Positions 9,742 to 63,900 of a stretch of DNA of 64,000 nt are shown piece after piece. The position numbers and the translations under genes were made by a program. The DNA is from Rhizophagus irregularis. Taxonomy: Eukaryota. Below the pieces are notes generated by a model. It saw only the letters and a program-made list of their open reading frames with translations. It was not told the DNA's origin and searched no databases. The first letter of the stretch is position 1; every line of letters starts with the position of its first letter. The stretch covers positions 868,001 through 932,000 of the forward strand of contig NC_089435.1 in NCBI RefSeq assembly GCF_026210795.1. Direction: 5' to 3'.

Positions 9742-10805
9742 GTTTTTAAAATTAAATAAGACAAGAAGAGAAACGAAGAATTATTTTATAGGTTACCCAA
9801 TTTATAAATTCATTAACATACACAATTTGATAACAAATTCTTATTGGAAGGAAGAAATTTCTGAACATGCTACAAATAGGAGATTCCTTTTTTGGAATGG
9901 CATGATTGGGATGAATTGATCAACAAAAACAAATAATTCTTTATAAAGTTTCTTTATTTCTCAATTTCATTTTTAAGCTGAATAAGCACAATTGCCACAA
10001 AAAGTTTATAATTAATCATTTTCATTCGAATAATAAATAATAAATTTAGTTATTTTTTTTAGGATAAGGTGATTTATTTAATTATTTACGGAATCCAAGG
10101 CCGCTCATATTGCTATTATGTGTCACACTGTGAAGTTATCCGTTGCACAATTTAATTACAATGAAAAAAATTTGGCGTTTTAAGGAGAGAACATTCTGGG
10201 CAAAACCACAGAAATATCCAAATTTGTCAAATTGGCTTAAATTCTTTAAATTTTTGTTTATTTTTTTATTTACATACACGGAGTGAGTTTATGCGAGTGT
10301 TACAGAATTGCATGCATTGTTGGATTTGTTTGTAAATTAAATTAAATTAATTAAAAATATTTAGTGTTTACATTTTTTTATATAAATAGAATATATAATA
10401 AAGCCAAATCTTAAAAGAGTATTATTGGTTATTTACCAGCAAAATAATTTTTATTATATTTTCGATCGTTGAAATTATAAAAGATTATATATTATAATAA
10501 AATCTTTTTCATCAATTCTTTTTATTTGGTATAATGAAGACAAATTTAACAAGCAAATGATTATTACTATAATTATAATTCTTTATTATATAAAAAAAGG
10601 AAAAAGTTTCAGAATTTGTAGAATTTGTTTGGAAATGGAGATCAGCTCATCAGCATGTGTAACAAATTTATTTTTTCTAGAGAGTGGAACGGTATGAATG
10701 GATGCCGTGTTCCATTTAATAGATATCATATAAATGACTGAATAGATTTTAAAAATTATTTAATTATTTTATTTAATTATTATATTGTAAAAGAAAACAA
10801 TTATC

Positions 10806-13157
10806 ATGAAAGAAACATTTTCTAGTTTTACCGTTGATATGTCAGAGTGCGTTAAAGATCATGGAATAAATATTATACAAACAACCGCAGATATTATTCA
10901 AAATTTAGAACCACATTTTGATATAGCAATTAAAATAGCATCTTATATATTAGTTATTTATGATAAAGCTAAAACTAATAAAAAAATTTGTAGAGTATTT
11001 GCTGATAGAGTAGATTTAGCTTTAACATCAATAAAATATTTACAAAGGCATATTGATAAAAATATTGAAAAATTTCATGAAAAAAGTTATTTTGAAAGTT
11101 TTATGCATTTTATTGAAGTATTAGAACATATTAAAAATTTTGTTGAAGAAGTTTCTGAATTTAAAGGTTTTAAAAAATTTTTCGTTGCTAGTGTTGTTAA
11201 TCAACAACTTAATGAAATTAGAGATGATTTTGATAATTGTTATAAATCATTACAACTTGCTATTGCTATTGATGATGTTGTTAATCGTGAAAATGAAAAT
11301 GAAGAGATAAAAAGTGATTTAAGTCAATTAAAAGGTTTTTTTGAAGATATTAAACATAGTTTTAATATAACTGATCAAAAATTATCAATTATTACTGCAA
11401 AAATTGAAATGTTGGAAAAAAATTCTTCGATTTTGGATAAATCGAAACCGCCTACAATTGGTCCGGAAAATCTTATAGTACCAGAAGATATCATAGAACG
11501 TAATAGTGTTGTATTAAGAAAATATAGAAATTTGGATGTCGCTTGTAAGCCAACTAAATATTCAACTGACGATAATAATCCAGAATCAAAAAAAGCTGGT
11601 GCAACTTTAACGATTTGGAATGAATTAAGTGAATGTCCTTATATAATTAAATTTCTTGGAGTTTCAAATTTGGATATTTATAATGAAAATGTTACGGTTC
11701 TAGAATGGGCTGAATTTGGAGATTTAAAAAGTCTTTATGAGAGTAAGAATCTTAATTGGAAACTTAAATTAAGTATGGCGAGAGATGTTTTTCGTGGTCT
11801 TTGTTTCTTGAATCATATTCGTAAGTTCCATTTATTTTATTAATTGCCGGTATTTTACGTCCGTGAACTAATTTCATATGAATAATAGGTGTTTTACATC
11901 ATGATGTTAGATGTGAAAATATTTTGGTAAGTTCTTTGATTCATCAATATACTCTAATTACTCTATGTTGAATTTATATTTAATTTATATATTTTAAATA
12001 CTGTAGGTGGTTGAAGGATTTAAATGTAAAATAACAAATTTTACTTTAAGTCGTAAAACACAATATGTAACTTCCAAAGTACATGATGGTGAGAGTGTGA
12101 AACAAATGATGCGTTGGATGGCTCCTGAGAAACTTAAACCTTATCAAAAATCAAATCAAAATACGAAGATAGAACCATATACTTATGCATGTGAAATGTT
12201 TAGGTATGTCGAACGAATTGGCTAAAAAAGATTAAAAAAAATAAATCTTTTAAAATTCTTTCCTTTTTTTTTTTTTATAGTTTTGGAATGCTTCTTTGGG
12301 AACTTTCTTTTAATAGAGTACCATATAAAGATATGGAATATGAATATGATGAAATAGTTGAACATGTTATGAGTGGAAAACGAGAAACGTTAAACTTTGT
12401 AAATTGTCCACCTGATATAATTGATGGTTTCACCGAAATTATTACATCGGCATGGCAGCATGAAAATCGTAAACGTCCATCAACCCAAAAGGTCTCAAAA
12501 ATTCTTGAATCATTATATAAATCTCATGAAAATAATTTGTTAAATTTAAATGAAGAAACAAATTATGAACCTCAAAAATCTCAAGAAAGTTCTTTTACTA
12601 CCTCTACCATTTCTACCAATAATAACGCTATTGAAGTTGTTAATAAACATGTCATTGATCTTTTACCATTATCAGATGGTATTGAACATCATAATACAAA
12701 GGCTAAGAGAACAAAATCAAAACAAGATTATAAAATTTGTTGGGAATGTTTCAATGCACATGCAAATATTGGTAATAAAACGGCTATGTATTGGAAAGGT
12801 CTTTATTTATGGAAAGGTTTTGTTGAAAAGAATCAAATTGAAGCAAAAAAATTATTTAAAATTGCAGCTGACGCTGGAATGGCTGATGCTCAATTGGAAT
12901 ATGCTTTTGCTTATGATAGTAAGAATCTTAAAAATCCTGATTTACCTTTTGATAAAAAAGAATGTTGGAAATATTTAAATATGGCCGCTGAAAATAATAA
13001 TTCTATAGCATTATACCACGTAGGTATTACTTATTATAACGGAAAAATGGGAGTAAAACAAGATAAAGAAAAAGGTATTGGATATCTTAAACTTTCCGCT
13101 TTACAAGATAATCCTAAAGCAATTGAAACATTAGATAAACACGGAATTAATCTTTAA
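10806..13157 (+). CDS. MLKL-like N-terminal helical domain + pseudokinase + C-terminal Sel1 repeats (~708 aa)
   Basis: Exons 10806-11820, 11889-11926, 12007-12203 and 12281-13157 (2127 nt, in frame). N-terminus YDKAKTNKKICRVFADRV...LEHIKNFVEEVS..GFKKFF resembles MLKL_NTD; kinase fold VACK, HHDVRCENIL, ITNFTLSR (DFG changed to NFT), RWMAPE; Sel1 motifs AADAGMADAQ and AAENNNSIALYHVG. Confidence 0.85.
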
Positions 13158-21902: not shown

Positions 21903-23084
21903 GGAGACAGGGTGTTGCCATCTTGATTGGAAAAAAATGTAAATGAACGGGAGTGAGGTGAACTCTCTTCCGGACAAAAAACCAAGGAACAAAACATTAA
22001 ACGAACCGTGAATAAAAAATAAAAAGTCTATACTATAAGATTACAAATAAAAGAAGTATTATAAAATGAGACTTTATTATGAGGTAAAAGAAAAATAGAA
22101 AATTCTCTATGAGTAGTCCAATCTCCTCCATGTAAAATACTACTCTAGATATCCAGCGTATATAGGCAGATTCGTTAATACGGTTTACGCTGTTATTGTA
22201 TCCTAAAACGTTGGATCGTGCGAGGTTGAGTACGATGTGTAATTATATTGTCTTCACGTAACATATCAGAATGTTCTATTTTCCCGAAGCGTTGATGATA
22301 AGTTTTTTTTTTGGGCATAGTAATACCCAGAGTTAATTCCCGTTCTTTAATGGCGTTGGCGTGATCTCGTCAAATATCATTATTGATGTCTTTCATAAGT
22401 GGAGTGATGAATTCTAATAAAGCACTATTAATTCATAAGTTTTCTATGCACAATTTTTTACTCCTATTGGATCATGTGACTTTTTTTGCCGCTCTTACCC
22501 ATTTTTAAATTCTGTTTTCCTACCAAAGAAATATTTTTATGGTACAGACTATTTCTTTGATTATTACTTTATTATTCGTAGACTATTACATGATTTATTA
22601 TTATTATTGTTGTTATTTTTTGTATGACATAAAGTGCATGTGATGAAAAAATTTCAATATTTTATTTCTTTTATTGTTAATCGGACTTTGAACTCAGAAT
22701 CTGGAATCAGTGTGATTAACTAATTTTGGCAAATTCCGACTTTTTATTTCTACTTTTTACTTTGAAATTTTGACTGTATTCCCAAAAAGTATACCCGATT
22801 TTAGACCATTATCTCAATTCCCAACAGATACAATCGTGACTCAACAGAAGATTAGAAAATATACTTCATTCTGCCATCTTTAATTTACATAAACGATCTT
22901 CTAGGGTGATTTATATATGATTTAAGGTTAACTTTATTAAGCTATATATACGCGTCTTAAATCTGATTAAACTTTTATTATGAGGACGCGTTTTGCAAGT
23001 CAGGAGTATGTACTGATCTTACTGATGATTATTATGTTAAATTAAATTAGTCAGGAGTTGCAGACCATCAGTTCTCTTCGCATT

Positions 23085-25735
23085 ATGGACTTTTTTGATG
23101 AAACCGACATCCGCCAATGGACGTGCAACAACGTTATAAAACACTATAAAGAAAAAAATGTCGAATATGATATAACAAATTTTCGATACCATGAATAAAG
23201 ATATTAAACATGTGGTAAGGTCTAATAAAGATCCGTCGCGTAGAGAAAAGGCCCAAAGTATACTCAATAATTGGAAAGTATGTTAATATTGTTTTACTAG
23301 AAATATTGTGGTGAAAAGATATTTAAAGCATGGCCAAGCTGTACACTCTTAATCGATCAGTTATGAACTCTTAGTTCGTGCCTACTTTAACTTCCTTTGG
23401 CAGAAGCCGTGCACTCTTAGTCGATCAGTTATGAACTCTTAGTTCCCTGCCAAGAGCATCAAAGCCTTACACTCTTAGTCGATCGGTTATGAACTCTTAG
23501 TTCGATGCTCTAATGAATACCAATATTGTGCATTTAATTATTAACCTGTTGAACTTTGCTAATTATACTTCTTTTCACTTAGAGTTGGGTTAATGACTTC
23601 AAAAAATTCAATCGGGATAATAAAAAATTGCAAAAACTAATTTCAGAACGTAATAGTATTTTGATGGTAATAATCATTTAAACGTATTTATGTGAGAAAA
23701 TGTACTTAACTATGCGAGAATTAATTGTTTTCTTTCCTTTCTTATTTCATAGGCAGTACAAAAAAATGAAATTATTAAATTTACAGTAGTGAGAGATAAG
23801 GTAGCACGTACAATGCTTACGCGACAATTAGAAAACTTCAAGGATGAGAGGCCAAAAAAGTGCATGGTATTTTAATAACTGAGAAATATCTAGATATTGC
23901 TTCTATATATAATATATCTAACATTATCTTTGTATATAGCATATAGAACAAGATCCAACTATTCAATCTCATCAAACTCCACAACCCATTGAAATCATTG
24001 AGATTTCAAGCGATGATGACAATTCGGATATATATTCTGACTTTGATGACGAAAATAACAATAAGGACGATTTAGAAATTGTGATCGAAGTTGGTCCAGA
24101 TATTGCTCCCACCGAACTAAAGTCAAAGGGAACTATATCGGTATATCCGGCTGAAGATAGGCCAACAGACACTTGGGTGTTGCCCTCTGGAAAGTTTGTG
24201 GCTGATGCGATATGTGGTCCCCCTACCCTTCATAAATCCCAGTAAGTTCTATATCTTTATCTTTTTTTCATTGCTTAACATTCTAACTTATTTTTTATTT
24301 AACTTAGTCCATCTAATATGGGGATTGTACATCTTGGAGCAAAGGTCTAATGACCCGAGTGGATAGATAAGGAAGATTGGGAGTATCTACAAGAAAGTGT
24401 CGAATATCCCAATGATACTCTAAGCCCTGACATAGAAAAACTTTTCAGTGATTTATTAGAAACTGTAATTATTTAAGAAAACTTATTATAATAATGCACT
24501 AGTGTATATTTATTTTATTATTAACTAATTACAGAATTCCCTTGTGGAATATTCGGAATATCTCCACAATATAAGATTTGATACAAAAAATAAACAGATG
24601 GAATTCGCCATAAATATACTCTGGTGGTTGTAAGTATTTTTATATAATGGTACATTTAATGTTGTTAATACCTTAACCATTTGATTTATTTTAATTTTAA
24701 GCACGGACGTAGTGTTTAACCCATGTAGCGCATTCCATTGTCCTTGCGAACAAGAATCAATTTTAGGGTCACTTTTAATACATCCCATTTTGCAATATGT
24801 TTTAAAACATTCACAACAAATATGTATATATACCGTATGTTTCAGATTTCAATATAAAAATATATGTATATCTTTTTTTTTATTTGCTTGTAATAAATAA
24901 TTAAAAGCTTTCTTTTAAATAGAGGCGAATTCTACCTTCAAACAAGCGCAAATCAGCGCTTAATTCAGCGTAAACTTAAGCTGGAAGATGGCAATCCATT
25001 AGGTCTTAAGATTGATAGAGTTTTCCAGTCTGCTGATAACAAGCCATTCGAATTTGGGATGATAGAATTGTCTGGTGGATATAATACTAATGATTTTCCT
25101 CGATATCTAAAAGATCATGTTCGTGGTTGCTGGGGTATGCAAAATAACATTGCAACAAAGCTTGCATTTGGTGATTATAAGAATATGAGGCAGCTTCGTG
25201 CGTGGTTCCTTCATACGCATGGTGGTAAGTGAAGTGTGAAATTTTGAGGTTTAACTTCTAAATAACTATTAAATCAAGTGTCTTTGTTTACTAATAGGAC
25301 AAGACGTTCAAGTTTGGGGAATGGATATACCCGTCAGTTAAGAAAGTTTATTGTATGTTTCTCCTTGGCGCTTTTCGGTTCCCGATCAACTGGGAAGATC
25401 ATCATGAACTTTTGCACGCACTACCAATATTATGGAATTTCGGTGTAAGTTCATGATTTTTTTTGTAAAGTATCTGAAGTATCTCATTTCTGATCTTTTT
25501 TTTTATACAGAAAGGTTTAAATGACACTGTTGATGTACTTGAAAATTTAAAGAAGTCACACAATCGCAATTCAATTATATCTAAAAAATCGGAATTAAAA
25601 ACATATATTTATCATATTAAACAATCTCCAAAAAAACCTACTGGCAAAAAAGCGCATAATATCAATCCAATGAAGCGTGAAGAAATCAAGGATCCACCTT
25701 CACCTTCACCAATGCCAAAAAATGAATCTTTTTAA
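23085..25735 (+). pseudogene. Multi-exon pseudogene of an uncharacterised family; the C-terminal part has a possible PD-(D/E)xK-like signature
   Basis: MDFFDETDIRQWTC..., a frameshift near 23180, TAA-TGA at 24348-24353; KIDRVF..FEFGMIELSGG..YLKDHVRG; canonical introns. Confidence 0.65.
23323..23510 (+). ncRNA. Candidate structured RNA motif, three tandem copies inside intron 1 (23278-23582)
   Basis: A conserved ~42-nt core, AAGCYKTRCACTCTTARTCGATCRGTTATGAACTCTTAGTTC, each copy closed by a different complementary stem. Confidence 0.55.
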
Positions 25736-28991: not shown

Positions 28992-30534
28992 TAGAAAGTA
29001 AGTAACGGAAATTGGCAAAGTAACGTAAAGTCACATGATCTATTACGTTACTTCTCTTATATAAGGTACGGAACGTAAATTTTTTTGGTAAATACTTAAC
29101 GCTACTCCTTATATTTGCCACATAATCACGTCATGTTTATTTGTTTATCAAATCTCGTTTTCAATATAGGTTCATTTCCTCGGTTCCTTCCGGTTCTGCA
29201 ATTAAGGTTCAGTTGTTTTTTTATTTCATTTCAGTTCTAAAATTAATAAAGGTATTTTTTTTATTTTTTTTATTTTTTTTTATTTCGTTTTTATCTTATA
29301 TTTCGTTTCTTACTAACTTCATTTTTTTTTACTTTATGGTTTATTTTTACTTGGTTTCCTATCATTACCCAACCTCCTATCATGATCATTTTTTTATTTT
29401 TTGTCTCTCATCATTTTCACCTCATATTACTTCTCATTATTCGTCTCCCATTATTTCTATTACATCTTTTTATTTTCCATTATTTCTTTTTCTCTCCTGT
29501 TTACTTCCTATCATTTCTTTTTGTTTCTCATCACTTCCTTTCGTCTTCCATCACTCCTCTTTGTCTCCAATCACTTCTTTTCGTCTCCCATCTCTCCTTT
29601 TCGTCTCTCATCACTTCTTTTCGTCTCCCATCACTCCTCTTTATCTCCCATCACTTCTTTTCGTCTCCCATCACTCCTATCACTTCTTTTCGTTTCCAAT
29701 CACTCCTTTTCGTCTCCCATCATTTCTTTTTGTCTCTCATCACTTCTTTTCGTCTCCCATCTCTCCTTTTCGTCTTCCATCTCTCCTTTTCGTCTTCCAT
29801 CTCTCCTTTTCGTCTCTCATCACTTCTTTTCGTCTCCCATCTCTCCTCTTTGTCACCCATCATTTCTTTTCGTCTCTCATTACTCATCTTCGTCTCCCAT
29901 CACTCCTTTTTATCTCTCATCATGTTCTATTTCTCCTTTTTGTTTCCTATCACTTCTCATTGCTCTTTTTTACTCCCTTTCATCTTCTATTACTTTCCAT
30001 TACTCCATTGTTATTTCATTTTTTTATTAGCATCTTTTTCCTTGATCATTATAATTTACTTATCTTTTTTATTTATTGTTATTGTTTTTTTTATTTTGTA
30101 TCACTTCATTAAAAATAATTAAATAAACATGGTGATTATTTCTTTAAAATCTAAAACGTGTGACTTAAATTTTAATATTTACGAATAAAATTTCATTAAA
30201 TAAGATTATTTTGAATTAAATATGTTTGCAAAAAAAATTTTTTAAAAATATCTTCGCAATAAAATTTTAAGTTTAACCGATCAAAATTAGCTAAGTTAAA
30301 ATGATCAGATCAGCTATCAGCCGATTCTCTATATATTGTGCATCATGTGACAATTGTGGACTTCAAAAAAAACCCAGACGATGATCGATGATCGCCCAGG
30401 CAACCCTATATTATTTTCTGTACCTTACTTATATAAGGGGAATATAATTGACTTTACGCTCCGTGAGGGAGTAACCTAAAATAGTAATATTACGTTACTT
30501 ACTTAGCCAATTTCCGTTACTCACTTACTACCTG
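28992..30534. mobile_element. Non-autonomous DNA element with TIRs and an internal 21-bp minisatellite
   Basis: Inverted repeat AAGT(A/G)AGTAACGGAAATTGGC at 28996-29016 and 30506-30527; the right half recurs at 52983-53888; no TSD identified. Confidence 0.7.
29430..29960. repeat. 21-bp pyrimidine-rich minisatellite (cttttcgtctcccatcactcc)n
   Basis: More than 20 imperfect units; these explain the spurious F/S/L-rich ORFs in three frames. Confidence 0.9.
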
Positions 30535-31306: not shown

Positions 31307-31506
31307 ACTGGTTGATTTTTAACTCAATGCAGATCACTTACCGGAAAAAATATGACCCAAAAAAAATCAATTTTATTTATTTATTTTTATTATTACTTCT
31401 TCTTTTGGTAAAATATTCCTTTTTTGTAACTCATTCACGATGATTTAAAAATTTTGTCAAAAAAAAAAATAAATTCTTTCAATAAAATAAGTTTCTAAAT
31501 TATAAA

Positions 31507-34500
31507 ATGGAAACGAAATTTAGCAATTTAAATATCAAAAATTGTTTATATTGCAATAACCCTTTTACTAAAGAATTATGGTGTAAAGAATGCATTAATT
31601 CTTTAGAAAAATTAGCAGAAAATGGTAATAAAGAAGCAATGTTCAATTTAACCATACATTATGGAAATGGAATGGAAAAGAATTTAGAAAAAGCCTTTTA
31701 TTGGTATCAAAAAGCAGCAGAAAATGGTCTTAAAGATGCAATGCTTAATTTAGCCATACATTATGAAGGTGAAGAAGAAACAGAAATGAATTTTGAAAAA
31801 GCCTTTCATTGGCATCAAAAAGCAGCAGAAAAAGATCATATTAAAGCAATTATTAATTTGGCCATATTTTATAAAAATGGAAAACAAACAGAAAAGAATA
31901 GTGAAAAAGTCTTTTATTGTTATCTAAAAGTATTTACTTTAGCCCTACGTTATGAAAATGGAGAAGGAACAGTAAAGAATTTAGGAAAAGCCTATTATTG
32001 GTATCAAAAAGCAGTAGAAAATGGTAATGAAGAAACAATGCTTACTTTAGCCATGCGTTATGAAAATGGAGAAGGAACAGAAAAGAATTTAGATAAAGCC
32101 TTTTATTGGTATCAAAAAGCAGCAGAAAATAATTTTATTATTGCAATGGTGTATTTAGCCTTTTGTTATAAAAATGGAAAAGGAACAGAAAAGAATTTAG
32201 AAAAAACCTTTTATTGGTATCATAAAGTAGCAGAAAGGGGTATTAATGAAGTAATGCTTATTTTAGCTATACGTTATGAAAATGGAGAAGGAACAGAAAA
32301 AAATTTAGAAAAAGCCTTTTATTGGTATCAAAAAGCAGCAGAAAATGGTTGCACTGATACAATGTTTAATTTAGCCATATGTTATGAAAATGGAAAAGGA
32401 ACAGAAAAGAATTTAGAAAAAGCCTTCTATTGGTATCAAAAAGCAGCTGAAAATGGTATTAAAGAAGCAATGATCATTTTAGCCTTATTTTATGAAAATG
32501 GAGAAGGAACCGAAAAGAATTTTGAAAAAGCCTTTTATTGGTTTCAAAAAGCAGCAGAAAATGGCTTTATTATTGCAATGTCTATTTTAGCCATATATTA
32601 TATAATTGGAAAAGGAACAGAAAAAAATTTAGAAAAAGCCTTTTATTGGTATCAAAAAGCAGCAGAAAATGGTGTTAAAAAGGTAATGTTTAATGTGGTC
32701 AATAGATATTATAATGGAGAAGGAACAGAAACGAATTTCGAAAAAGCTTTTTATTGGTATCAAAAAGCAGCGGAAAATGGTGTTAAAGAAGCAATGATTA
32801 ATTTGGCCATATGTTATAAAAATGGAGAAGGAACTGAAAAAAATTTAGGAGAAGCCTTTTATTGGTATCAAAAAGCAGCAGAAAATGGTGTTAAAGAAGC
32901 AATGATTAATTTGGCCATATGTTATAAAAATGGAGAAGGAACTGAAAAGAATTTAGAAAAAGCCTTTCATTGGTTTCAAAAAGTAGCAGAAAATGGTATT
33001 AAAGAAGCAATGCTTATTTTAGCCTTATGTTATGAAAATGGAGAAGGAACAGAGAAGAATTTAGAAAAAGCCTTTTATTGGTTTCAAAAAGCAGCAGAAA
33101 ATGATTATACTGATGCAATGTTTAACTTAGCCATATGTTATGAAAATGGAGAAGGAACAGAAAAGAATTTAGAAAAAGCCTTTTATTGGTATCAAAAAGC
33201 AGCAGAAAATGGTATTAAAGAAGCAATGACTATTTTAGCCTTCTACTATGAAAATGGAAAAGGAACAGAAAAGAATTTAGAAAAAGCCTTTTATTGGTAC
33301 CAAAAAGCAGCAAAAAATGGTTTTAATATTGCAATGTCTATTTTAATTGTATATTATGAAATTGGAAAAGGAACAGAAAAGAATTTGGAAAAGGTCTTTT
33401 ATTGGTATCAAAAAGCAGCAGAATATGGTGATAGTGAAGCAATGTTTAATTTAGCCAATAGGTATTATAATATAGAAAGATCTGAAAAGAATTTAGAAAA
33501 AGCTTTTTATTGGTATCAAAAAGCGGCAGAAAATGGTGTTAAAGAAGCAATGTTTAGTTTGGCCATACGTTATAATAATGGAGAAGGAACAGAAGAGAAT
33601 TTAGATAAAGCCTTTTATTGGTATCAAAAAGCAGCAGAAAATGGTCACACTGATGCAATGTTTAGTTTGGCCATATGTTATAAAAATGGAAAAGGAACAG
33701 AAAAGAAATTAAATGAGGCTTTTTATTGGTATCTAAAAGCAGTGGAAAATGGTCACACTGTTGCAATGTTTAATTTAGCCATATGTTATAAAAATGGAAA
33801 TGGATCAGAAAAGAATATAGATAAAGCTTTTTATTGGTATCAAAAATCAGCAGAAAATAGTATTAAAGAAGCAATGTTTAGTTTAGCTATTTGTTATTAT
33901 AATGGAGAAGGAACAGAAAAGAATTTAGAAAAAGCCTTTTATTGGTATCAAAAAGCAGCAGAAAAAGATCATATTGAAGCAATGAATAATTTAGCCACAT
34001 GTTATGACAATGGAGAAGGAACAGAAAAGAATTTAGAAAAAGCTTTTTATTGGTATCAAAAAGTAGCAGAAAGTAATAAAGTGAACCCCAATACTAAAGT
34101 TGAATTATGTAATGAATGCAAACAACCATACACTGATTATCAGTGGTGTCAACAATGTAATGCTAAACAATTTCAACAAGATTTTTCAAAATGGACTAGT
34201 AAAAATAAGTTTATTGATAAATTTATTCGAGAAGCACAATCAAATGCTAAAAATAGTTATGAAATTTTGGAATGGATACCATATGATAAACTGTCAAGTA
34301 TTAATTATTATGATAAAGGAGGATTCAGTGAAATTCATAAAGCTATCTGGTTAGATGGACCTATTTTTAGTTGGAATTTTGACAAAAAACAATGGAATAG
34401 ATGTAATTTTCAAACAGGTTACGAGGTTATTCTTAAAACACTTAATAATTCATCAAATTTAAATAATAAATTTCTTGAGGAGGTATGTTATTTATATTAT

Positions 34501-35444
34501 TTAATATCAAATTTTATTTTCTCTTGCAAAAATTTAATAATTTATTATTATTTATATAGTGGAAATATCATTATAACTGTCAGAAAAAATCATTTTCAAA
34601 GTTTATTCAATTCTTTGGAATTACTCAAGATCCAAATAGTTTAAATTATATAGTAGTAATGAGTTATGCAAAAAAAGGAAGTTTGAGAAAATGCTTATCT
34701 GATATAATTAAGTTTAAGTGGCAAGACAAATTACAATTATTAAAAAAAATTATATTAGGACTTAAAGTAATCCATGAATCAAATTTAACTCATGGTGATT
34801 TTCATGATGGCAATATTTTAATGTCAGATAATCATAATGAATTATTTATTATTGATTTAGGATTATGTAAACCTATAAATGATTCACAGGATTCTGATAA
34901 TGAAATTTATGGAGTTTTACCTTATATGGCGCCTGAAATATTAAGATATAATCCCTATACTCCAGCAAGTGATATTTATAGTTTTTCAATGATAATGTGG
35001 GAATTTACATCAGGTATTCCCCCATTTAAATATGAAGCACATGATCATGATCTGATCTTGAGTATTTGTAAAGGAGAACGTCCTGAAATTATAAAAAATA
35101 CTCCAAAATGTTATGTGGATTTAATGAAAAAATGTTGGGATTCAAATCCTGCCAATAGACCAACTATAATAATGCTTGAGAATATTATATCTGAATGGAT
35201 TGAATGTATTAGTGATTATTATAGAATAAACAGGGATGGAAATTATATATTTGATGTACCTAATATTGATAATCAATTAAAAGATGTTATGTTGGAATTT
35301 GTTATAGCAAACAAATCTTTATCACAGGAACAAGTAAATCCTTCTATTACACAATCTCATCCACAAGCACATTATACAAGTCGCAAGCTTGCTGAAATTT
35401 TAGTTCAAGAGACTCAGGGTTTTGAATGTGTAATTGAAGATTAA
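31507..35444 (+). CDS. Sel1-repeat (~23 x 36 aa) TKL protein kinase (~1286 aa)
   Basis: Exons 31507-34482 and 34560-35444; 108-bp repeats EAMFNLAICYENGEGTEKNLEKAFYWYQKAAENG; kinase motifs KGGFS, VILK, HGDFHDGN, DLG and APE. Confidence 0.93.
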
Positions 35445-49570: not shown

Positions 49571-51025
49571 ATGGGAACTAAATATAGTAATTTTAATATT
49601 TCAGATAAAGATACTGATACAGCAAGCACTGCTAATTGTTTATATTGCAATAAACCTTTTATTGAAAAATTATGGTGCAAAGAATGTATTAACTCTCTAG
49701 AAAAATTAGCAGAAAATGGCGATAAAAAAGCAATGAATAATTTAGCCAATAGGTATTATAATGGAGAAGGAACAAAAAAGAATTTAGAAAAAGCCTTTTA
49801 TTGGTATCAAAAAGCAGCAGAAAATGGTGTTAAAGAAGGAATGCATAATTTAGCTATTTGTTATAATAATGGAAAAGGAACAGAAAAGAATTTAGAAAAA
49901 GCATTTCATTTGTATCAAAAAGCAGCAGAAAATGGTGTTATAAAATCAATGATGTATTTAGCTATTTGTTATTATAATGGAAAAGGAACAGTAAAGAATT
50001 TAGAAAAAGCCTTTCATTGGTTTCAAAAAGCAGCAGAAAATGGTATTAAAGAAGCAATGTTTATTTTAGCCGCATGTCATAAAATTGGAGAAGGAACAGA
50101 AAAGAATTTAGAAAAAGCCTTTTACTGGTATCAAAAAGCAGTGGAAAATGGTTATACTGATGCAATGTATAATTTGGCTGTTTGTTATGAAAATGGAGAA
50201 GGAATAGAAAAGAATTTAGAAAAGGCCTTTTACTGGTATCAAAAAGCATCAGAAAATGGTGTTAATAAAGAAGCTATGTTTAATTTAGCCACACTTTTTA
50301 AAAATGGAGAAGGAACAGTAAAGAATTTAGAAAAAGCCTTTTATTGGTATCAAAAAGCAGCAGAAAATGGTGATGAAAAAGCAATGTTTAATTTAGCCAT
50401 ATGTAATTATTATGGAGAAGGAACAGTAAAGAATTTAGAAAAAGCCTTTTACTGGTATCAAAAAGCAGCAGAAAATGGTATTAAGAAAGCAATGTCTATT
50501 TTAGCCATATGTTATAAAAATGGAGAAGGAACAGAAAAGAATTTAGAAAAAGCCTTTCATTGGTTTCAAAAAGCAGCAGAAAATGGTGTTAAAGAAGCCA
50601 TGTTTAATTTAGCCACACTTTTTAAAAATGGAGAAGGAACAGTAAAAAATTTAGAAAAAGCCTTTTATTGGTATCAAAAAGCTTCAGAAAATGGTGTTAA
50701 AGAAGCAATGTTTAATTTAGCCATTTGTTATGAAAATGAAAAGAATTTAGAAAAAGCCTTTTATTGGTATCAAAAGGCAGCAGAAAATGGTGTTAAAGAA
50801 GGAATGCATAATTTAGCTATCTGTTATTATAATGGGGAAGGAACAGAAAAGAATTTAGAAAAAGCCCTTTATTGGCATCAAAATGCAGTGAAAAATGGAA
50901 ATGGAAAAGCAATGTTTAATTTAGCTAGATATTATGAAGATGGCAAAGGAATAGAAAAGAATTCAGAAAAAGCCTTTTATTGGTATCAAAAAGCAGCAGA
51001 AAAGATTATATTTACACCATTATAA
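49571..51025 (+). CDS. Sel1-repeat protein (12 repeats), a truncated paralogue of 31507-35444 lacking the kinase domain
   Basis: Same N-terminus NCLYCNKPF..LWCKECINSLEKLAENG; homology breaks at ~51012 (AAEK|IIFTPL* versus AAEKDHIEAM). Confidence 0.82.
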   Translation: MGTKYSNFNISDKDTDTASTANCLYCNKPFIEKLWCKECINSLEKLAENGDKKAMNNLANRYYNGEGTKKNLEKAFYWYQKAAENGVKEGMHNLAICYNNGKGTEKNLEKAFHLYQKAAENGVIKSMMYLAICYYNGKGTVKNLEKAFHWFQKAAENGIKEAMFILAACHKIGEGTEKNLEKAFYWYQKAVENGYTDAMYNLAVCYENGEGIEKNLEKAFYWYQKASENGVNKEAMFNLATLFKNGEGTVKNLEKAFYWYQKAAENGDEKAMFNLAICNYYGEGTVKNLEKAFYWYQKAAENGIKKAMSILAICYKNGEGTEKNLEKAFHWFQKAAENGVKEAMFNLATLFKNGEGTVKNLEKAFYWYQKASENGVKEAMFNLAICYENEKNLEKAFYWYQKAAENGVKEGMHNLAICYYNGEGTEKNLEKALYWHQNAVKNGNGKAMFNLARYYEDGKGIEKNSEKAFYWYQKAAEKIIFTPL

Positions 51026-51924: not shown

Positions 51925-52946
51925 ATGGCACCCACTTCGGTATTTGAAATGCAAAGGTTGACTGTTAAGGAGCTATGGGATAATAATATACGAAAACCCT
52001 CTGAAATAATTAAAATGACTGGTTTTCCAAAGTCTACAGTATATGACATTATCAATCGTCTAAAAAAACAGGAAGTGTTGAACACTTACCCGTTCCTGGT
52101 CGTCCTCTTGTTCTGACACCAAAAAAACGTCGATATCTTGGCCGTCTTCTTAAAAATGATAATGCAACAACTTCAGCTTTAATGACAACAAAGCTGAATA
52201 ATTTGTATCCAGATCTTAATGTATCAACCTGAACTGTACAACGTACTCTTAAAAATAAACTTAATTATATTGTTTGTAGACCATGGTCTGTTCCTCTTCT
52301 TAAAGAAAGTCATGTTGAAGCTCATCTTCAATGGGCCTTAAATCACATCCAAGATGACTGGACTCACACAATTTTTTCGGATGAAAGTACATTTCAGACG
52401 TTTCATAATACTCAAATTGTACGTTACAAGGCTGGAAACCCACATCCAGTACATCCTATGGTAAAACATCCATATAAGGTTCATGTTTGGGGTGCATTTT
52501 GCCGCCAAGGGCCAATTGGAGTTGCATTATTTACAGAAAACATGAATTCTGCTAAATACCGTGAAATCCTTCAATCTCAACTACTTCCTAATGCTTATCA
52601 TGCTGGTTATGGATGGAATTTTCAGCAGGACAATGCGCCAATGCATACCGCGAAGCTTACTCATCAATTTTTTGTGATTAATAATGTTCCGGTTATTGAT
52701 TGGCCTGCAAACTCACCTGACTTGAACCCCATCGAAAATTTATGGGCGATTCTTAAAGAAAATGTAGAAAGAAGGGTTAATAATTGGGTTATGAAAAAAA
52801 AATCACTTGGTGCTAATGATTTTCAAGGCATAATTCAGCAAGAATGGGATAATATTGATAAAAATCTCTTCTTTAGTTTAGCAGATAGCATGTCAGATCG
52901 GATTAACATGGTCATAGAAAATAATGGTTATACGATAAATTACTAA
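51925..52946 (+). pseudogene. Tc1/mariner DD34E transposase pseudogene
   Basis: HTH region (PKSTVYDII..GRP), FSDES, FQQDNAPMH...WPANSPDLNPIENLW with 34 residues between D and E; frameshift in the A-run near 52065 and an in-frame TGA near 52230. Confidence 0.92.
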
Positions 52947-52982: not shown

Positions 52983-53888
52983 TTCGTCTCCCATCATTCC
53001 TTTTCGTCTCCCATCACTCCTCTTCGTCTTCCATCACTTCTCTTCGTCTCCAATTACTCCTCTTCGTCTCCCATCACTCCTTTTCATTTCCCATCACTCC
53101 TCTTCGTCTCTTACCATTTCTCTTTGTCTTACATTACTTCTCTTCGTTCCCAATCATTCCTCTTCGTCTCCCATCACTTCTTTTCGTCTCCCATTACTCC
53201 TCTTCGTCTCTAATCACTCCTTTTCATCTTTCCATCACCCCTTTTCGTCTCCCATCACCCCTCTTCCCATCACCCCCTTTTCATCTCTCATCACCCCTCT
53301 TCGTCTTCCCATCACTTCTTTTCGTCTATCATCACTCTTTTTCATCATCTATCATGTCCTATTTTTCCTTTTTGTTTCCTATCACTTCTCATTACTCTTT
53401 TTTACTCCCTTTCTTCTTCTATTATTTTCCATTACTCCATTGTTATTTCATTTTTTTATTAGCATCTTTCTCCTTGATCATTGTAATTTACTTATCTTTT
53501 TTATTTATTGTTATTGTTTTTTTATTTGTATCACTTCATTAAAAATAATACAGTGATTTTTTACTTTAAAATCAAAAATGTGGGACTTAAATTTTAATAT
53601 TTGCAAATAAAATTTCATTAAATAAGATTATTTTGAATAAATATATTTGCAAAAAAAATTTTTAAAAATATCTTTGCAATAAAATTTTAAGTTTAATGGA
53701 TCAAAAATTAGCCAAGAAAAAAATCAGCCATCAGTCGATTAATAAATTTACTTTATATATTGTACATCATGTGACATATTGAAAAAAACCCCAGATGATC
53801 CGTGCCTTATATAAGGGAGTAACGTAAATTGACCTAAAATAGTAATTTTACGTTACTTATTTAGCCAATTTCTGTTACTTACTTGCTA
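52983..53888. repeat. Second copy of the 21-bp minisatellite plus the right end of the 28992-30534 element
   Basis: Colinear similarity to 29430-30530. Confidence 0.85.
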
Positions 53889-60229: not shown

Positions 60230-60815
60230 AAAAATCACGATTTCTAGAAAAATTCTCGCGAATTTTTCTTGATACTGCTTATTTTAAAGTTTAAAGACCG
60301 ATTAGCAAACTGAAATCACGATTTCAAGAAAAATTCTCACGAATTTTTCTTGATACCGCTTATTTTTAAAGTTTAAATAAATTGAAATCACGATTTTTTA
60401 AGAAAAATTCTCGCAAATTTTTCTTGATGCTGCTTATTTTAAAGTTTAAAGACCGATTAGCAAACTGAAATCACGATTTCAAGAAAAATTCTCGCGAATT
60501 TTTCTTGATACCGCTTATTTTTAAAGTTTAAATAAATTGAAATCACGATTTTTTAAGAAAAATTCTCGTGAATTTTTCTTGATGCTGCTTATTTTAAAGT
60601 TTAAAGACCGATTAGCAAACTGAAATCACGATTTCAAGAAAAATTCTCGCGAATTTTTCTTGATACCGCTTATTTTTAAAGTTTAAATAAATTGAAATCA
60701 CGATTTTTTAAGAAAAATTCTTGCGAATTTTTCTTGATGCTGCTTATTTTAAAGTTTAAAGACCGATTAGTAAACTAAAATCACGATCACTAAGAAAAAT
60801 TCGCGAGAATTTCTT
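60230..60815. repeat. 155-bp tandem repeat (a dimer of palindrome-containing subunits)
   Basis: GACCG ends at 60300, 60455, 60610 and 60765; each subunit contains AAGAAAAATTC-TCGC-GAATTTTTCTT. Confidence 0.9.
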
Positions 60816-60907: not shown

Positions 60908-63900
60908 TTACCAATTTTCATATTTATCTATTATATAATAATATTTTTTTTTTTCAAGGAGTACTTCAAAAAATCTGACATTTCTATCAATACCAATTAC
61001 TTCCACATATTGTAAAGAACCAAAACTATCAAAAAATTTTAAATTCACACTACTATTTTTCTCTAATTTTTTGATTTTTCGAATATATGCAAACATTCGC
61101 TCTTGATTTTGAAATTCATGAACCATAAAATATTCAATTTGTCCAAAAATTTCTTTTTCTCTCAAATTTAGAGAAGCACGGTAATTTCTTTCTTGTAAGT
61201 CAACAGTTAAATTAATCTATATAATAAAATTATCTTATTAATATTTTGAATTTTGAATATATAATGAAACAATAATAATAATTAATATATTTATTTCTTA
61301 CAGCGACGCAAAAATCATTTCGACTACTATCATTTTCTTTTTTCCACCACTTAGATGATATAATGTTACCATCCTTTGTACGAAGTTTTCCATACTTAGC
61401 ATAGTTTTCTTTAATGTTCTATATAAAAAAAATTATATATTATTTTTTTTAAAAAAGAATATTCTTATACATATTATTATGTGAGTTATAATATAAAATC
61501 ACCGTAATTTCGCTAGTATTCTTTTGAAATATAGCTGCATAACATTGCTTTAACTTTATGACTTCATTTTTTGTTAATACACAATTAACAAATGGTGAAT
61601 AAAATTCGTATTCGTGAACATATAATTCATTAGAATATACTCTATGCACCAGCCATGTTTTTTTTTCTTTTTCTTTAAAATTGGAAAAAACTTTTTCATT
61701 ATATATTGGTAAAAGTTGCAGATACTTAAATCTTTCTTGCATCAACACATTATTAAACAAATTCACATATGGTAGTTTTCGAGAGCTAACAAGTGGAATT
61801 AACATTCCACAAAACCTCTCCATCGGAAACTGCCAAAATCCACGACAAGGGCCAAAGTCTTCAATCAAATCTATTACATGTAATAAATAATGAAAAGAAA
61901 TTAAAAATGCCGGTAATCTTTCTCCTCCAATGCCATATAAACTATTGCACAAAAAAAATTCACGCGATCAATAAAAATATCGTTTTAAGAAAAAGGCATA
62001 TATAAATTTCATAAGAAAATTACTTTGCATAATGATTGTAAAATTCTATTAATAAATTTCGAATTAAATCTAGCTCTTCAAATTCTATTAGAGGTTGAAT
62101 GCATAACTTGACAGCTTCAACAAATCTTGACCATCCTAAGAGGTTACTATTATTTTAAGTTAAATAATGTTATCAGCAGACTTTTTATTATTTTATCTGC
62201 CAACAATTTGATTTTTTTTATTACCTTTGCGGCAATCGCCCTTTTAGTAATGGTAAAGAGAATAAAATGATCCAATTAGCCCACTCTACAGCTTTAAACC
62301 CAGCTGAATGTTTAACGATATTGCGTGGAGGACGTCCAATATCAGGTGGCATATGAGATCTACTTCGTTCCATGATTTCACCAATTTCAACCCATGTTTT
62401 AGAACTTATTGTATATTCATTTGAGTTCCATTCATTATTTTTTGGATAGAATTTTCCTATCCAATGTCGAAACATATGGGGTGCAACATTTTCGAAAAAA
62501 AGGTGCATTATACACAGGTCGAAAAGTGAAAAATCAGGCACCAATCGGTCACCAATCAGGTAGCTGATTGGTGACTGATTGGTGCCTGATTGGCATTTTC
62601 GCCAAATACCGTCACCAATCAGGCAGTTTACTAACTTTTGATCCAGTGATCAGAAAAGAATGAAATATAGCTCATTGGAATCGTCTCAACAAGACGAATC
62701 TAATGGTAGTAAAATTGCATTTCTAGGATTAATACTTGATGAGAAATTAAGTAAAATATAAAAATAAAAATGTATCATTTATATTTTATTTAATTTTTTA
62801 TTAACTTTTAATCCTAGAGATGCGATTTTACTACTATTAGATTCGTCTTGTTGAGACGATTCCAATGAGCTATATTTCATTCTTTTCTGATCACTGGATC
62901 AAAAGTTAGTAAACTGCCTGATTGGTGACGGTATTTGGCGAAAATGCCAATCAGGCACCAATCGGTCACCAATCAGGTACCTGATTGGTGACCGATTGGT
63001 GACTGATTGATGCCTGATTTTTCACTTTTTGACCTGTGATATCTACTGGAAATGAACGTGGAAAATTTATAGAAGATAACTCAAATAAAATACTCTTTCC
63101 TTTAATTCCTAATTTTTTTTATTAAACAAAAAATTTTTAAAATTGAGAAAATATATTAATATTAATTACTAAGAATTTATTTTTATTTTAAAATATTGGA
63201 CCAACCGCAGTCACGTATATAAGTTTCTCTACGATCTCCCTCCAGACGTTCTATTTGATTTGTGCTATTCAGTATTTCATCATGTGTTCGAATTGGTAAT
63301 CGTTTAGGATTAATATTTTGTTACAATGGATAATACACATGTCTATTCGTTTCATTTAAAGTCCCTCGAAGATTACAAAATCTGCAACCTGAGTATGAAT
63401 TATGTCCTGTTAAACATAGAACCTTTAAAAGGGCAGGGATATCGCCGGTCCAAGCCAGAATGTTAGCACGTAGAGTAAACTGTTCCTCTTTGTTACCATC
63501 GTAACAAGAGATTCCATCTGTAAATATTAAAAATATTATTAATAAATATTACATTTATTACGTACCATTTATTTAAAATATACCTTGTAAGAATTTCATT
63601 TCTTGAATTAATGGATAGAGAAATGAATTAAAATCTTGAGGTTGTTTTGGCCCCGGGATTATTAAAGTTACCATTAAATTTTCTTTCTTTACTCTTAATT
63701 CTTGAGGTAAATTATTATTTAGAAACAGGAACACCCAACAATCATCGGTCTTTTGACGAAATATTTGGTAGCCGTCGCAAGAAGCAGTAAATGCGATGTC
63801 TCTTGGATCGGGAAAATATTCGTCATTTAATAATTCTTGATAAATCTGTCTATCAAAGATGTCACCTATGTTATTATGAGCAAATTCTCCTTTATTACAA

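What the first reader, a model, noticed from the sequence alone, without database searches (positions are those of the whole stretch)
23323..23510. Triplicated intronic motif with covarying stems: candidate new structured RNA
Seen: three copies of a ~42-nt core, each enclosed by a different closing stem. Copy 1 has TTAAAG..GGC/GCC..CTTTAA (23323-23390, imperfect), copy 2 TTGGCAG/CTGCCAA (23397-23453) and copy 3 GAGCATC/GATGCTC (23454-23510). Inside the core, AGCTG/CAGTT in copy 1 becomes AGCC/GGTT in copy 3 (a U-A to C-G compensatory change; mismatched in copy 2). A G-U pair favours the sense strand. Two hairpins share an ACU-CUU-AGU loop, one of them GAACU-CUU-AGUUC. Together this predicts a three-way junction. 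Simple tandem duplication would not change both arms of the outer stem in a complementary way. I cannot match it to hammerhead, twister, HDV or pistol cores. Inference: an undescribed ribozyme, splicing regulator, protein-binding element or small mobile hairpin unit.
Basis: partly seen in the sequence, partly recalled or inferred. Interest (0 to 1): 0.82.

Follow-up and report, generated by a model that had tools for sequence, protein, structure and literature searches.

The report
Ancient triple RNA junction in fungal introns
An intron of a mycorrhizal-fungus gene holds three tandem copies of an undescribed sequence motif that recurs, as inferred from mis-called protein models, in the same intron across at least nine fungal genera; it is predicted to fold into three-way RNA junctions that likely act as protein-binding sites controlling whether the gene is spliced.

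Summary
The three copies are real: a 42-nt block, 38-39/42 identical, in a 305-nt GT-AG intron (23278-23582) of a Rhizophagus irregularis-type gene. Copies 2 and 3 are closed by their own 7-8 bp stems (shuffle P 0.003 and 8e-5). Alone, the window gives weak folding z-scores and no significant covariation. The decisive evidence came from mis-called gene models of other fungi that read into the same intron. A junction signature is codon-compatible in 17 of 74 host-family proteins (shuffles 0.2; reverse strand 0) from nine arbuscular-mycorrhizal genera. It appears in two reading frames, so conservation is at nucleotide level. Loops vary, stems are kept, and one P2 pair switches A-U to G-C. All 16 profile hits are host-family genes: a helical N-terminal 'header' exon joined to diverse nuclease-like tails. 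No Rfam family, known ribozyme core, paper or earlier scan note matches. It is not a dispersed mobile hairpin. Best reading (0.45): a tandem protein-binding element that gates splicing of the header-to-tail intron. A new ribozyme (0.2) is not excluded. No homologous DNA or RNA data could be fetched.

The parts
23085..23277 (+). 'Header' exon: about 65-aa helical N-terminal module ending ...NWK; carries a frameshift near 23174 in this genome
   Evidence: tblastn of P0006 on the window; family of 52 representatives; AlphaFold pLDDT about 80 for residues 1-67 of a homologue
23278..23582 (+). 305-nt GT-AG intron (GTATGT ... CTAAT branch-like site at 23559 ... TTAG) that holds the motif
   Evidence: sequence; exon joins of R. 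irregularis models P0001-P0006
23323..23390 (+). Unit 1: P1 GGC/GCC (23332-34/23380-82) plus an outer 6-bp stem; P2 23338-41/23358-61; P3 23365-68/23374-77, extendable by two pairs
   Evidence: 3' flank conserved in 5 foreign models
23397..23453 (+). Unit 2: 7-bp P1, P2 with one C.A mismatch, P3 hairpin; its 5' arm ends in an AG (23402-03)
23454..23510 (+). Unit 3: 7-8 bp P1, P2, P3; the best-folding unit (P2 and P3 pair probabilities 0.96-1.0)
23404..23442 (+). Possible poison cassette: the AG at 23402-03, used as acceptor by several foreign gene models, opens a frame that stops after 12 codons (TAG 23440-42); use in vivo not shown
23310..23579 (+). Possible outer 10-bp stem (23310-19 with 23570-79) enclosing the array and masking the pyrimidine tract; weak
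   Evidence: pair probability about 0.9, but not beyond shuffles (P 0.049 for 9 WC pairs; 677 of 1000 shuffles as stable)
23583..25735 (+). Rest of host gene: multi-exon hypothetical protein with a K-x-D...E motif; broken here by in-frame stops (24348-24353) and a frameshift near 25335

Best explanation
The intron holds three tandem copies of a motif that, as inferred from protein models, is conserved across arbuscular mycorrhizal fungi, is predicted to fold as three-way junctions in the pre-mRNA, and likely serves as a multi-site protein-binding switch that would decide whether the header exon is spliced to the nuclease-like tail. Shown: three copies, own closing stems, intron position, sense orientation. 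Inferred from codon constraints in foreign gene models: conserved junction (AA, a G.U pair, a C-G pair, N-A-U, a 4-bp GAAC/GUUC stem), variable 5-nt loops, variable upper P2. Inferred, untested: a protein binds the junctions and lowers productive splicing, either by retention (stop two codons into the intron, giving a header-only product or decay) or by the cryptic acceptor at the P1/P2 border of unit 2. The header domain encoded just upstream is the first candidate binder (negative feedback on a possibly harmful nuclease); a conserved host RNA-binding protein is the second.
For: Conservation: P0048 (Cetraspora) matches the translated intron across all three units at E 8e-14. A profile of read-through peptides found 16 proteins among 6997 candidates, 8 of them new: 7 named, all Glomeromycotina, and 1 unnamed. 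The 7 named ones carry the peptide within or directly after the header sequence, and the unnamed one is an out-of-frame header exon (39-nt compatible run, null maximum 28). Signature compatible in 17 of 74 proteins, 9 of 51 found by the header alone; shuffles mean 0.2, reverse complement 0; two frames used. Structure: P2 in register has 14 forced and 1 impossible of 40 pairs, against 3-19 impossible when slid. Pair 5 is forced A-U in 2 of 8 types and G-C or G-Y in 3. Pair 3 occurs as U-A, U-G and C-G. P3 loops range from U-rich to purine-rich. The motif follows the header while tails are 16-33% identical in most comparisons. Most short models end just after ...WK|V. Header has conserved basic residues (K31, K39, R53, R/K54, K56). 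Precedent: RPL7B (PMC12311795, abstract) and P-element IVS3 (PMC7776569, passages).
Against: No homologous DNA, RNA reads, splice data or binding data. The signature was written after seeing these peptides, so the 17/74 count and the first three P2 pairs and all of P3 are partly circular. The plain tblastn count (5 of 61 at E<0.01) is not above shuffles (0-15). 0 of 13 later-fetched cluster members carried the signature (most do not read into the intron), and two Jimgerdemannia models stop short of it. Within-window covariation is not significant. The outer stem is not beyond chance. Header net charge is only -2 to +5 and it has no fold match. The host gene here is broken, so this copy may be a decaying relic.
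Confidence: 0.45

Rival explanations
1. Each unit is a small self-cleaving ribozyme of an undescribed class; tandem copies cut the intron and either destroy unspliced transcripts or release short RNAs.
For: Compact three-stem junction with conserved core and free loops. Tandem ribozymes are known in retrozymes and fungal viruses (PMC13725137, passages). The layout P1-AA-P2 hairpin-N-P3 hairpin-P1 resembles a type II hammerhead (two closed stems, one open; PMC3088659 passages), and AA-G-C...G-U-N echoes the hammerhead stem III side (consensus recalled).
Against: The hammerhead CUGANGA strand and GAAA are absent on both strands; only 0-2 nt lie where that strand would be. Few conserved unpaired bases. 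No Rfam ribozyme hit at E<=10. No loop-loop contact is evident, since loops vary freely.
Confidence: 0.2
2. The excised intron or its units act in trans as an RNA antitoxin or scaffold that binds the encoded header-nuclease protein, like the repeat RNA of bacterial type III toxin-antitoxin systems.
For: Tandem structured repeats inside a gene whose tail has a conserved K-x-D...E pattern, recalled as PD-(D/E)xK-like. Header-plus-REase families are described in PMC5289972 (passages).
Against: No evidence of a stable intron RNA. Nuclease fold not shown (pLDDT below 50). Tails are far more divergent than the RNA.
Confidence: 0.12
3. It is a DNA-level element: a single-strand hairpin or recombination site at the header/tail border that drives shuffling of tails.
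For: It lies exactly at the border between the constant header and the variable tails. Loops look homogenised within a locus, as gene conversion would give.
Against: Conserved G.U and U-G pairs work on the transcribed strand only. Stems, not identity, are kept between loci. No target-site duplication or terminal repeat was established.
Confidence: 0.08
4. The peptide is a real conserved cassette exon and the structure is incidental.
For: Seven models (six of the eight new hits plus P0015) carry a near-identical 24-29-residue peptide in frame between header and next exon.
Against: The same nucleotides are read in different frames by different models, P0084 in two frames at once. The frame closes after 12 codons in the window. 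All six R. irregularis models and others (P0016) skip it.
Confidence: 0.07
5. Neutral tandem duplication with arms made complementary by replication template switching.
For: Template switching can create and repair hairpin stems in one event (bioRxiv 10.1101/2021.04.15.439925, abstract). Folding z-scores and in-window covariation are weak.
Against: It cannot explain retention of the same core, order of units and flanks in nine genera inside an otherwise fast-evolving intron.
Confidence: 0.05

Closest known systems
Autoregulatory intron structures of yeast ribosomal-protein genes (RPL7B, PMC12311795 abstract; RPS13 and others listed in PMC8216456 passages)
   Same: Conserved structure inside an intron of the gene it would control; proposed to bind the gene's own product and repress splicing.
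   Different: Here a three-fold tandem junction in a multi-copy, modular family of hypothetical proteins with no known RNA ligand to mimic; no sequence or Rfam similarity; binding untested.
Drosophila P-element IVS3 (PMC7776569, passages)
   Same: One intron separates an N-terminal module from the enzyme part, so retention would give a short product and splicing the full enzyme.
   Different: IVS3 is controlled by an exonic silencer bound by host proteins and by piRNA, not by a tandem intronic fold; the host here is not shown to be a transposase.
Type II hammerhead ribozyme (PMC3088659, passages; Rfam hammerhead models)
   Same: Three-stem junction with two hairpins and one open stem, about 57 nt.
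   Different: No CUGANGA strand and no GAAA; no Rfam hit.
Crinkler-related (CR) header-plus-REase protein families (PMC5289972, passages summarising Zhang et al. 2016; the original was not available)
   Same: Host architecture: helical N-terminal header joined to diverse tails with an acidic motif; the review notes CRN-like proteins in R. irregularis.
   Different: No Pfam or fold match ties this family to a named CR header or REase; no structured intron RNA is mentioned in the passages read.

Membership tests
Any Rfam 15 family | Covariance-model score at the gathering threshold | tested here: not met
   0 hits in the window; at E<=10, none on the motif in 23200-23800 except an edge overlap and one 12.7-bit partial snoRNA hit (threshold 80) in 23315-23520
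Hammerhead ribozyme | Three stems around a junction | tested here: met
   predicted folds; prediction only
Hammerhead ribozyme | CUGANGA and GAAA core strands (consensus recalled) | tested here: not met
   absent on both strands of 23323-23510
Hammerhead or any small ribozyme | Site-specific self-cleavage | not testable with these tools
   needs an in vitro assay
HDV-like, twister, twister-sister, pistol, hatchet, hairpin ribozymes | Match to the family model or core | tested here: not met
   no Rfam hit at E<=10; hairpin loop-B word absent; no separate pseudoknot descriptor search was run
Box C/D snoRNA | Box C near the 5' end and box D near the 3' end, on one strand | tested here: not met
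   no box C on either strand, box D word only on the minus strand
tRNA-like element | Cloverleaf with T-loop | tested here: not met
   ARAGORN 0 genes; the one T-loop word lies in a stem
Autoregulatory intron element | Conserved structure at a fixed intron of the host family | tested here: met
   indirect, from protein read-through
Autoregulatory intron element | Bound by the gene's product, with repression of splicing | not testable with these tools
   no RNA run held the locus; no binding data
Dispersed mobile element (MITE, SINE, introner) | Many near-identical copies at unrelated sites | tested here: not met
   3 copies in the window only; no other contig laid on the motif in 8 runs, though a filter drops records; 16 of 16 profile hits in one gene family
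CR/REase host family | PD-(D/E)xK fold in the tail | tested here: inconclusive
   invariant D and near-invariant E with a strand pattern, but low-confidence models and no match

The most novel reading that the evidence does not exclude
A new class of small catalytic or antitoxin RNA, held in tandem in a spliceosomal intron and inherited with a shuffled N-terminal exon throughout arbuscular mycorrhizal fungi (possibly also Endogonales), that keeps a large family of nuclease-like genes in check at the RNA level.
Probability: 0.25. Interest if true: 0.9.

Novelty: new variant of a known kind. Interest (0 to 1): 0.72.

Why it matters
Deeply conserved structured RNAs are rare in eukaryotic introns. 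The two fungal screens consulted do not mention these fungi. Here one appears in tandem, tied to a modular gene family of a major plant-symbiotic fungal group, and seems better conserved than the protein it sits in. A 57-nt unit is directly testable for self-cleavage, folding and protein binding. A positive cleavage result would be a new ribozyme class; a binding result would show RNA-level self-control of an expanded nuclease-like family.

Tried and rejected
No whole genome is held for this window, so genome-wide copy search was not possible. Exact-core scans: metagenome contigs 0, viral contigs 0. Prokaryote genomes gave 8 hits against about 14 expected, none with the core. Relaxed viral scans gave 57 and 24 hits: none of the 57 shows the P3 hairpin by inspection and none of the 24 has a closing stem above 4 pairs. 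Phages: 6 hits at E 7; plasmids: none. Host-protein scan of metagenomes returned 2 loci that do not reach the intron; header scan of viral contigs 0. No RNA holder listed; laid contigs showed no splice joints, which says nothing on expression. ESM Atlas: only unnamed Mucoromycota clusters for the host, nothing usable for the read-through peptide. AlphaFold models were poor beyond the header; Foldseek, VIA-align (best Z 6.0), Pfam and PDB-sequence searches gave no family. The outer stem over the pyrimidine tract looked strong in folding but failed shuffles. A palindromic alternative P2 (around GAUC) explains both core variants one-sidedly but does not fit the foreign long-stem forms. Likeness to 5S loop C, U1 loop II, histone stem-loop, IRE1 loops, SECIS and Myb sites was considered from memory and dropped (no Rfam support; words absent or not conserved). 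No covariance model was built: three near-identical sequences carry no usable covariation. Literature searches listed no paper on this motif; Zhang et al. 2016 was not held and the supplements of the fungal RNA screens were not read. Earlier-scan look-ups by sequence and place were empty.

Full report
Source and setting. The window is AT-rich with Sel1-repeat and kinase genes. An exon near the finding matches Rhizophagus irregularis hypothetical proteins at 95-100%. Those models join ...NNWK to SWV..., which places a 305-nt GT-AG intron at 23278-23582; the motif fills 188 nt of it, at 43% GC against 24% for the rest. Contigs of three runs span the locus in one piece with no substitution in the motif, and a fourth covers it. 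The host gene has two frameshifts and two in-frame stops in this genome.

Observation. The copies, stems and the U-A / C.A / C-G series are as described. Copies 2 and 3 are closed by 7 and 8 Watson-Crick pairs with their own flanks (P 0.0026 and 8e-5) and by 2-5 pairs across copies; copy 1 has 3 contiguous pairs (P 0.28). On their own the three copies are weak evidence of a fold: z from -0.7 to -1.8, covariation reached by 337 of 500 shuffles. P2 is favoured on the sense strand. Rfam gives nothing.

Search for other copies. Pattern and BLAST scans of viral, metagenome, prokaryote, phage and plasmid collections gave nothing beyond chance. In 8 laid runs no other contig fell on the motif, although paralogous pieces were laid elsewhere in the stretch in 4 of 4 runs. 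The tool drops some records (0 laid for X8), so this argues against, but does not exclude, near-identical copies elsewhere.

The indirect route. The exon before the intron encodes a 65-aa helical module (52 representatives; pLDDT about 80). It is found in Glomeromycotina and Jimgerdemannia and is joined to tails that are mostly 16-33% identical but share a K-x-D...E pattern. Some automatic gene models read into the intron. P0048 of Cetraspora matches the translated window intron across units 1, 2 and 3 at E 8e-14; the raw count of weaker matches (5 of 61) was not above shuffles. A profile of ten such peptides, scored on 6997 candidates, returned 16 proteins. Eight were new: seven from named arbuscular mycorrhizal fungi with the peptide within or directly after the header sequence, and one unnamed that is an out-of-frame header exon. 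A junction signature (RGU-N-AU-RAAY-N5-GUUC) is codon-compatible with 17 of 74 proteins scanned, including 9 of the 51 found through the header alone and 7 of the 8 new ones; shuffles give 0.2 and the reverse complement 0. The signature was tuned on these peptides, so the count is partly circular. Thirteen later cluster members gave 0 (most do not enter the intron), and two Jimgerdemannia models show only the first half of a unit. The named carriers come from nine genera: Rhizophagus, Glomus, Funneliformis, Acaulospora, Cetraspora, Racocetra, Dentiscutata, Ambispora and Paraglomus.

What is conserved. The signature falls in two reading frames, both in P0084, so the constraint is on nucleotides. 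In 15 of 16 models an AAGCY-compatible start lies 21-24 nt upstream. Over eight peptide types the first five P2 pairs have 14 forced and 1 impossible of 40 in register, and 3-19 impossible when slid. Pair 5, which is not part of the anchors, is forced A-U in two types and G-C or G-Y in three; pair 4 is impossible in one. In the six models of the commonest type listed, P2 runs 10 pairs with none impossible; these are close relatives and count as one or two observations. P3 loops vary from U-rich to purine-rich and the base before AU is U, G or C. The copy-1 3' flank is kept with 0-1 mismatches in 5 of 11 models. The unit is therefore best drawn as P1 / AA / P2 (G.U, C-G, Y-R, variable top) / N-A-U / P3 / P1', repeated two or three times, with ancient position-specific closing arms.

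Mechanism. The element always lies in sense, in the one intron between header and tail. Retention stops the frame two codons in. The 5' arm of unit 2 ends in an AG behind a branch-like word and a pyrimidine run; several foreign models use it as an acceptor, and in the window it leads to a stop after 12 codons. These model choices are probably ab initio and are not evidence of real splicing. Sequence-specific stems around a small junction, free loops and tandem repetition fit a multi-site protein-binding element, as in RPL7B autoregulation (PMC12311795, abstract). A gated intron between an N-terminal module and an enzyme has a precedent in P-element IVS3 (PMC7776569, passages). The header has conserved basic residues but little net charge and no fold match, so its role as binder is a guess. 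An outer stem over the pyrimidine tract appears in folding but not above chance. I put 0.85 on a conserved RNA fold and 0.45 on splice control by protein binding; ribozyme 0.2, trans-acting antitoxin 0.12, DNA element 0.08, coding cassette 0.07, neutral 0.05.

Comparison. It works like fungal autoregulatory intron structures but is not a member of any Rfam family. It has the outline of a type II hammerhead (PMC3088659, passages) but lacks the catalytic strands. The host architecture resembles the header-plus-REase families reviewed in PMC5289972 (passages); membership is inconclusive. Li and Breaker 2017 (PMC5640933; two of eight parts read plus term search) and Gao et al. 2021 (PMC8216456; term searches) do not mention these fungi in their main texts; their supplements were not read. 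PMC12218528 (abstract) shows comparable intronic structures tied to alternative splicing and decay in plants. Eight literature searches aimed at the motif or its setting listed no description of it; subscription papers are not covered.

Verdict. A real, apparently undescribed and deeply conserved structured-RNA family, detected so far only through protein-level shadows outside this window. Novelty: new variant of a known kind; interest 0.72.

Noticed in passing
window 23085-25735 (+): Host gene has two frameshifts and two adjacent in-frame stops; the R. irregularis database models skip the exon part with the stops, so the lesion may be shared by strains.
   Followed up: partly
window 22908-23026 and 24191-24290: Short pieces shared at under 90% with other contigs in the laid runs, pointing to paralogues of the upstream region and of the tail.
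   Followed up: no
window 31486-35444 (+) and 49571-51025 (+): Long Sel1-repeat arrays (21 and 12 Pfam matches), the first followed by a kinase-like ORF.
   Followed up: partly
window 52233-52946 (+): DDE_3 transposase domain, E 4e-18.
   Followed up: partly
window 61449-62649 (-): ORF pieces that look like a CACTA/Plavaka-type transposase (likeness recalled; no Pfam hit), next to an 81/155-nt tandem array at 60232-60812.
   Followed up: partly
window 10791-13157 (+): MLKL-like N-terminal domain (E 1e-8) joined to a kinase and a Sel1-like tail.
   Followed up: partly
window 29506-29922 and 52983-53337: Two related 20-nt pyrimidine-rich tandem arrays (21 and 18 copies), the second just after the DDE transposase.
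   Followed up: no
proteins P0055 and P0099: Read about 35 codons into the same intron and look compatible with a unit that has a longer P2; not counted as signature hits.
   Followed up: partly
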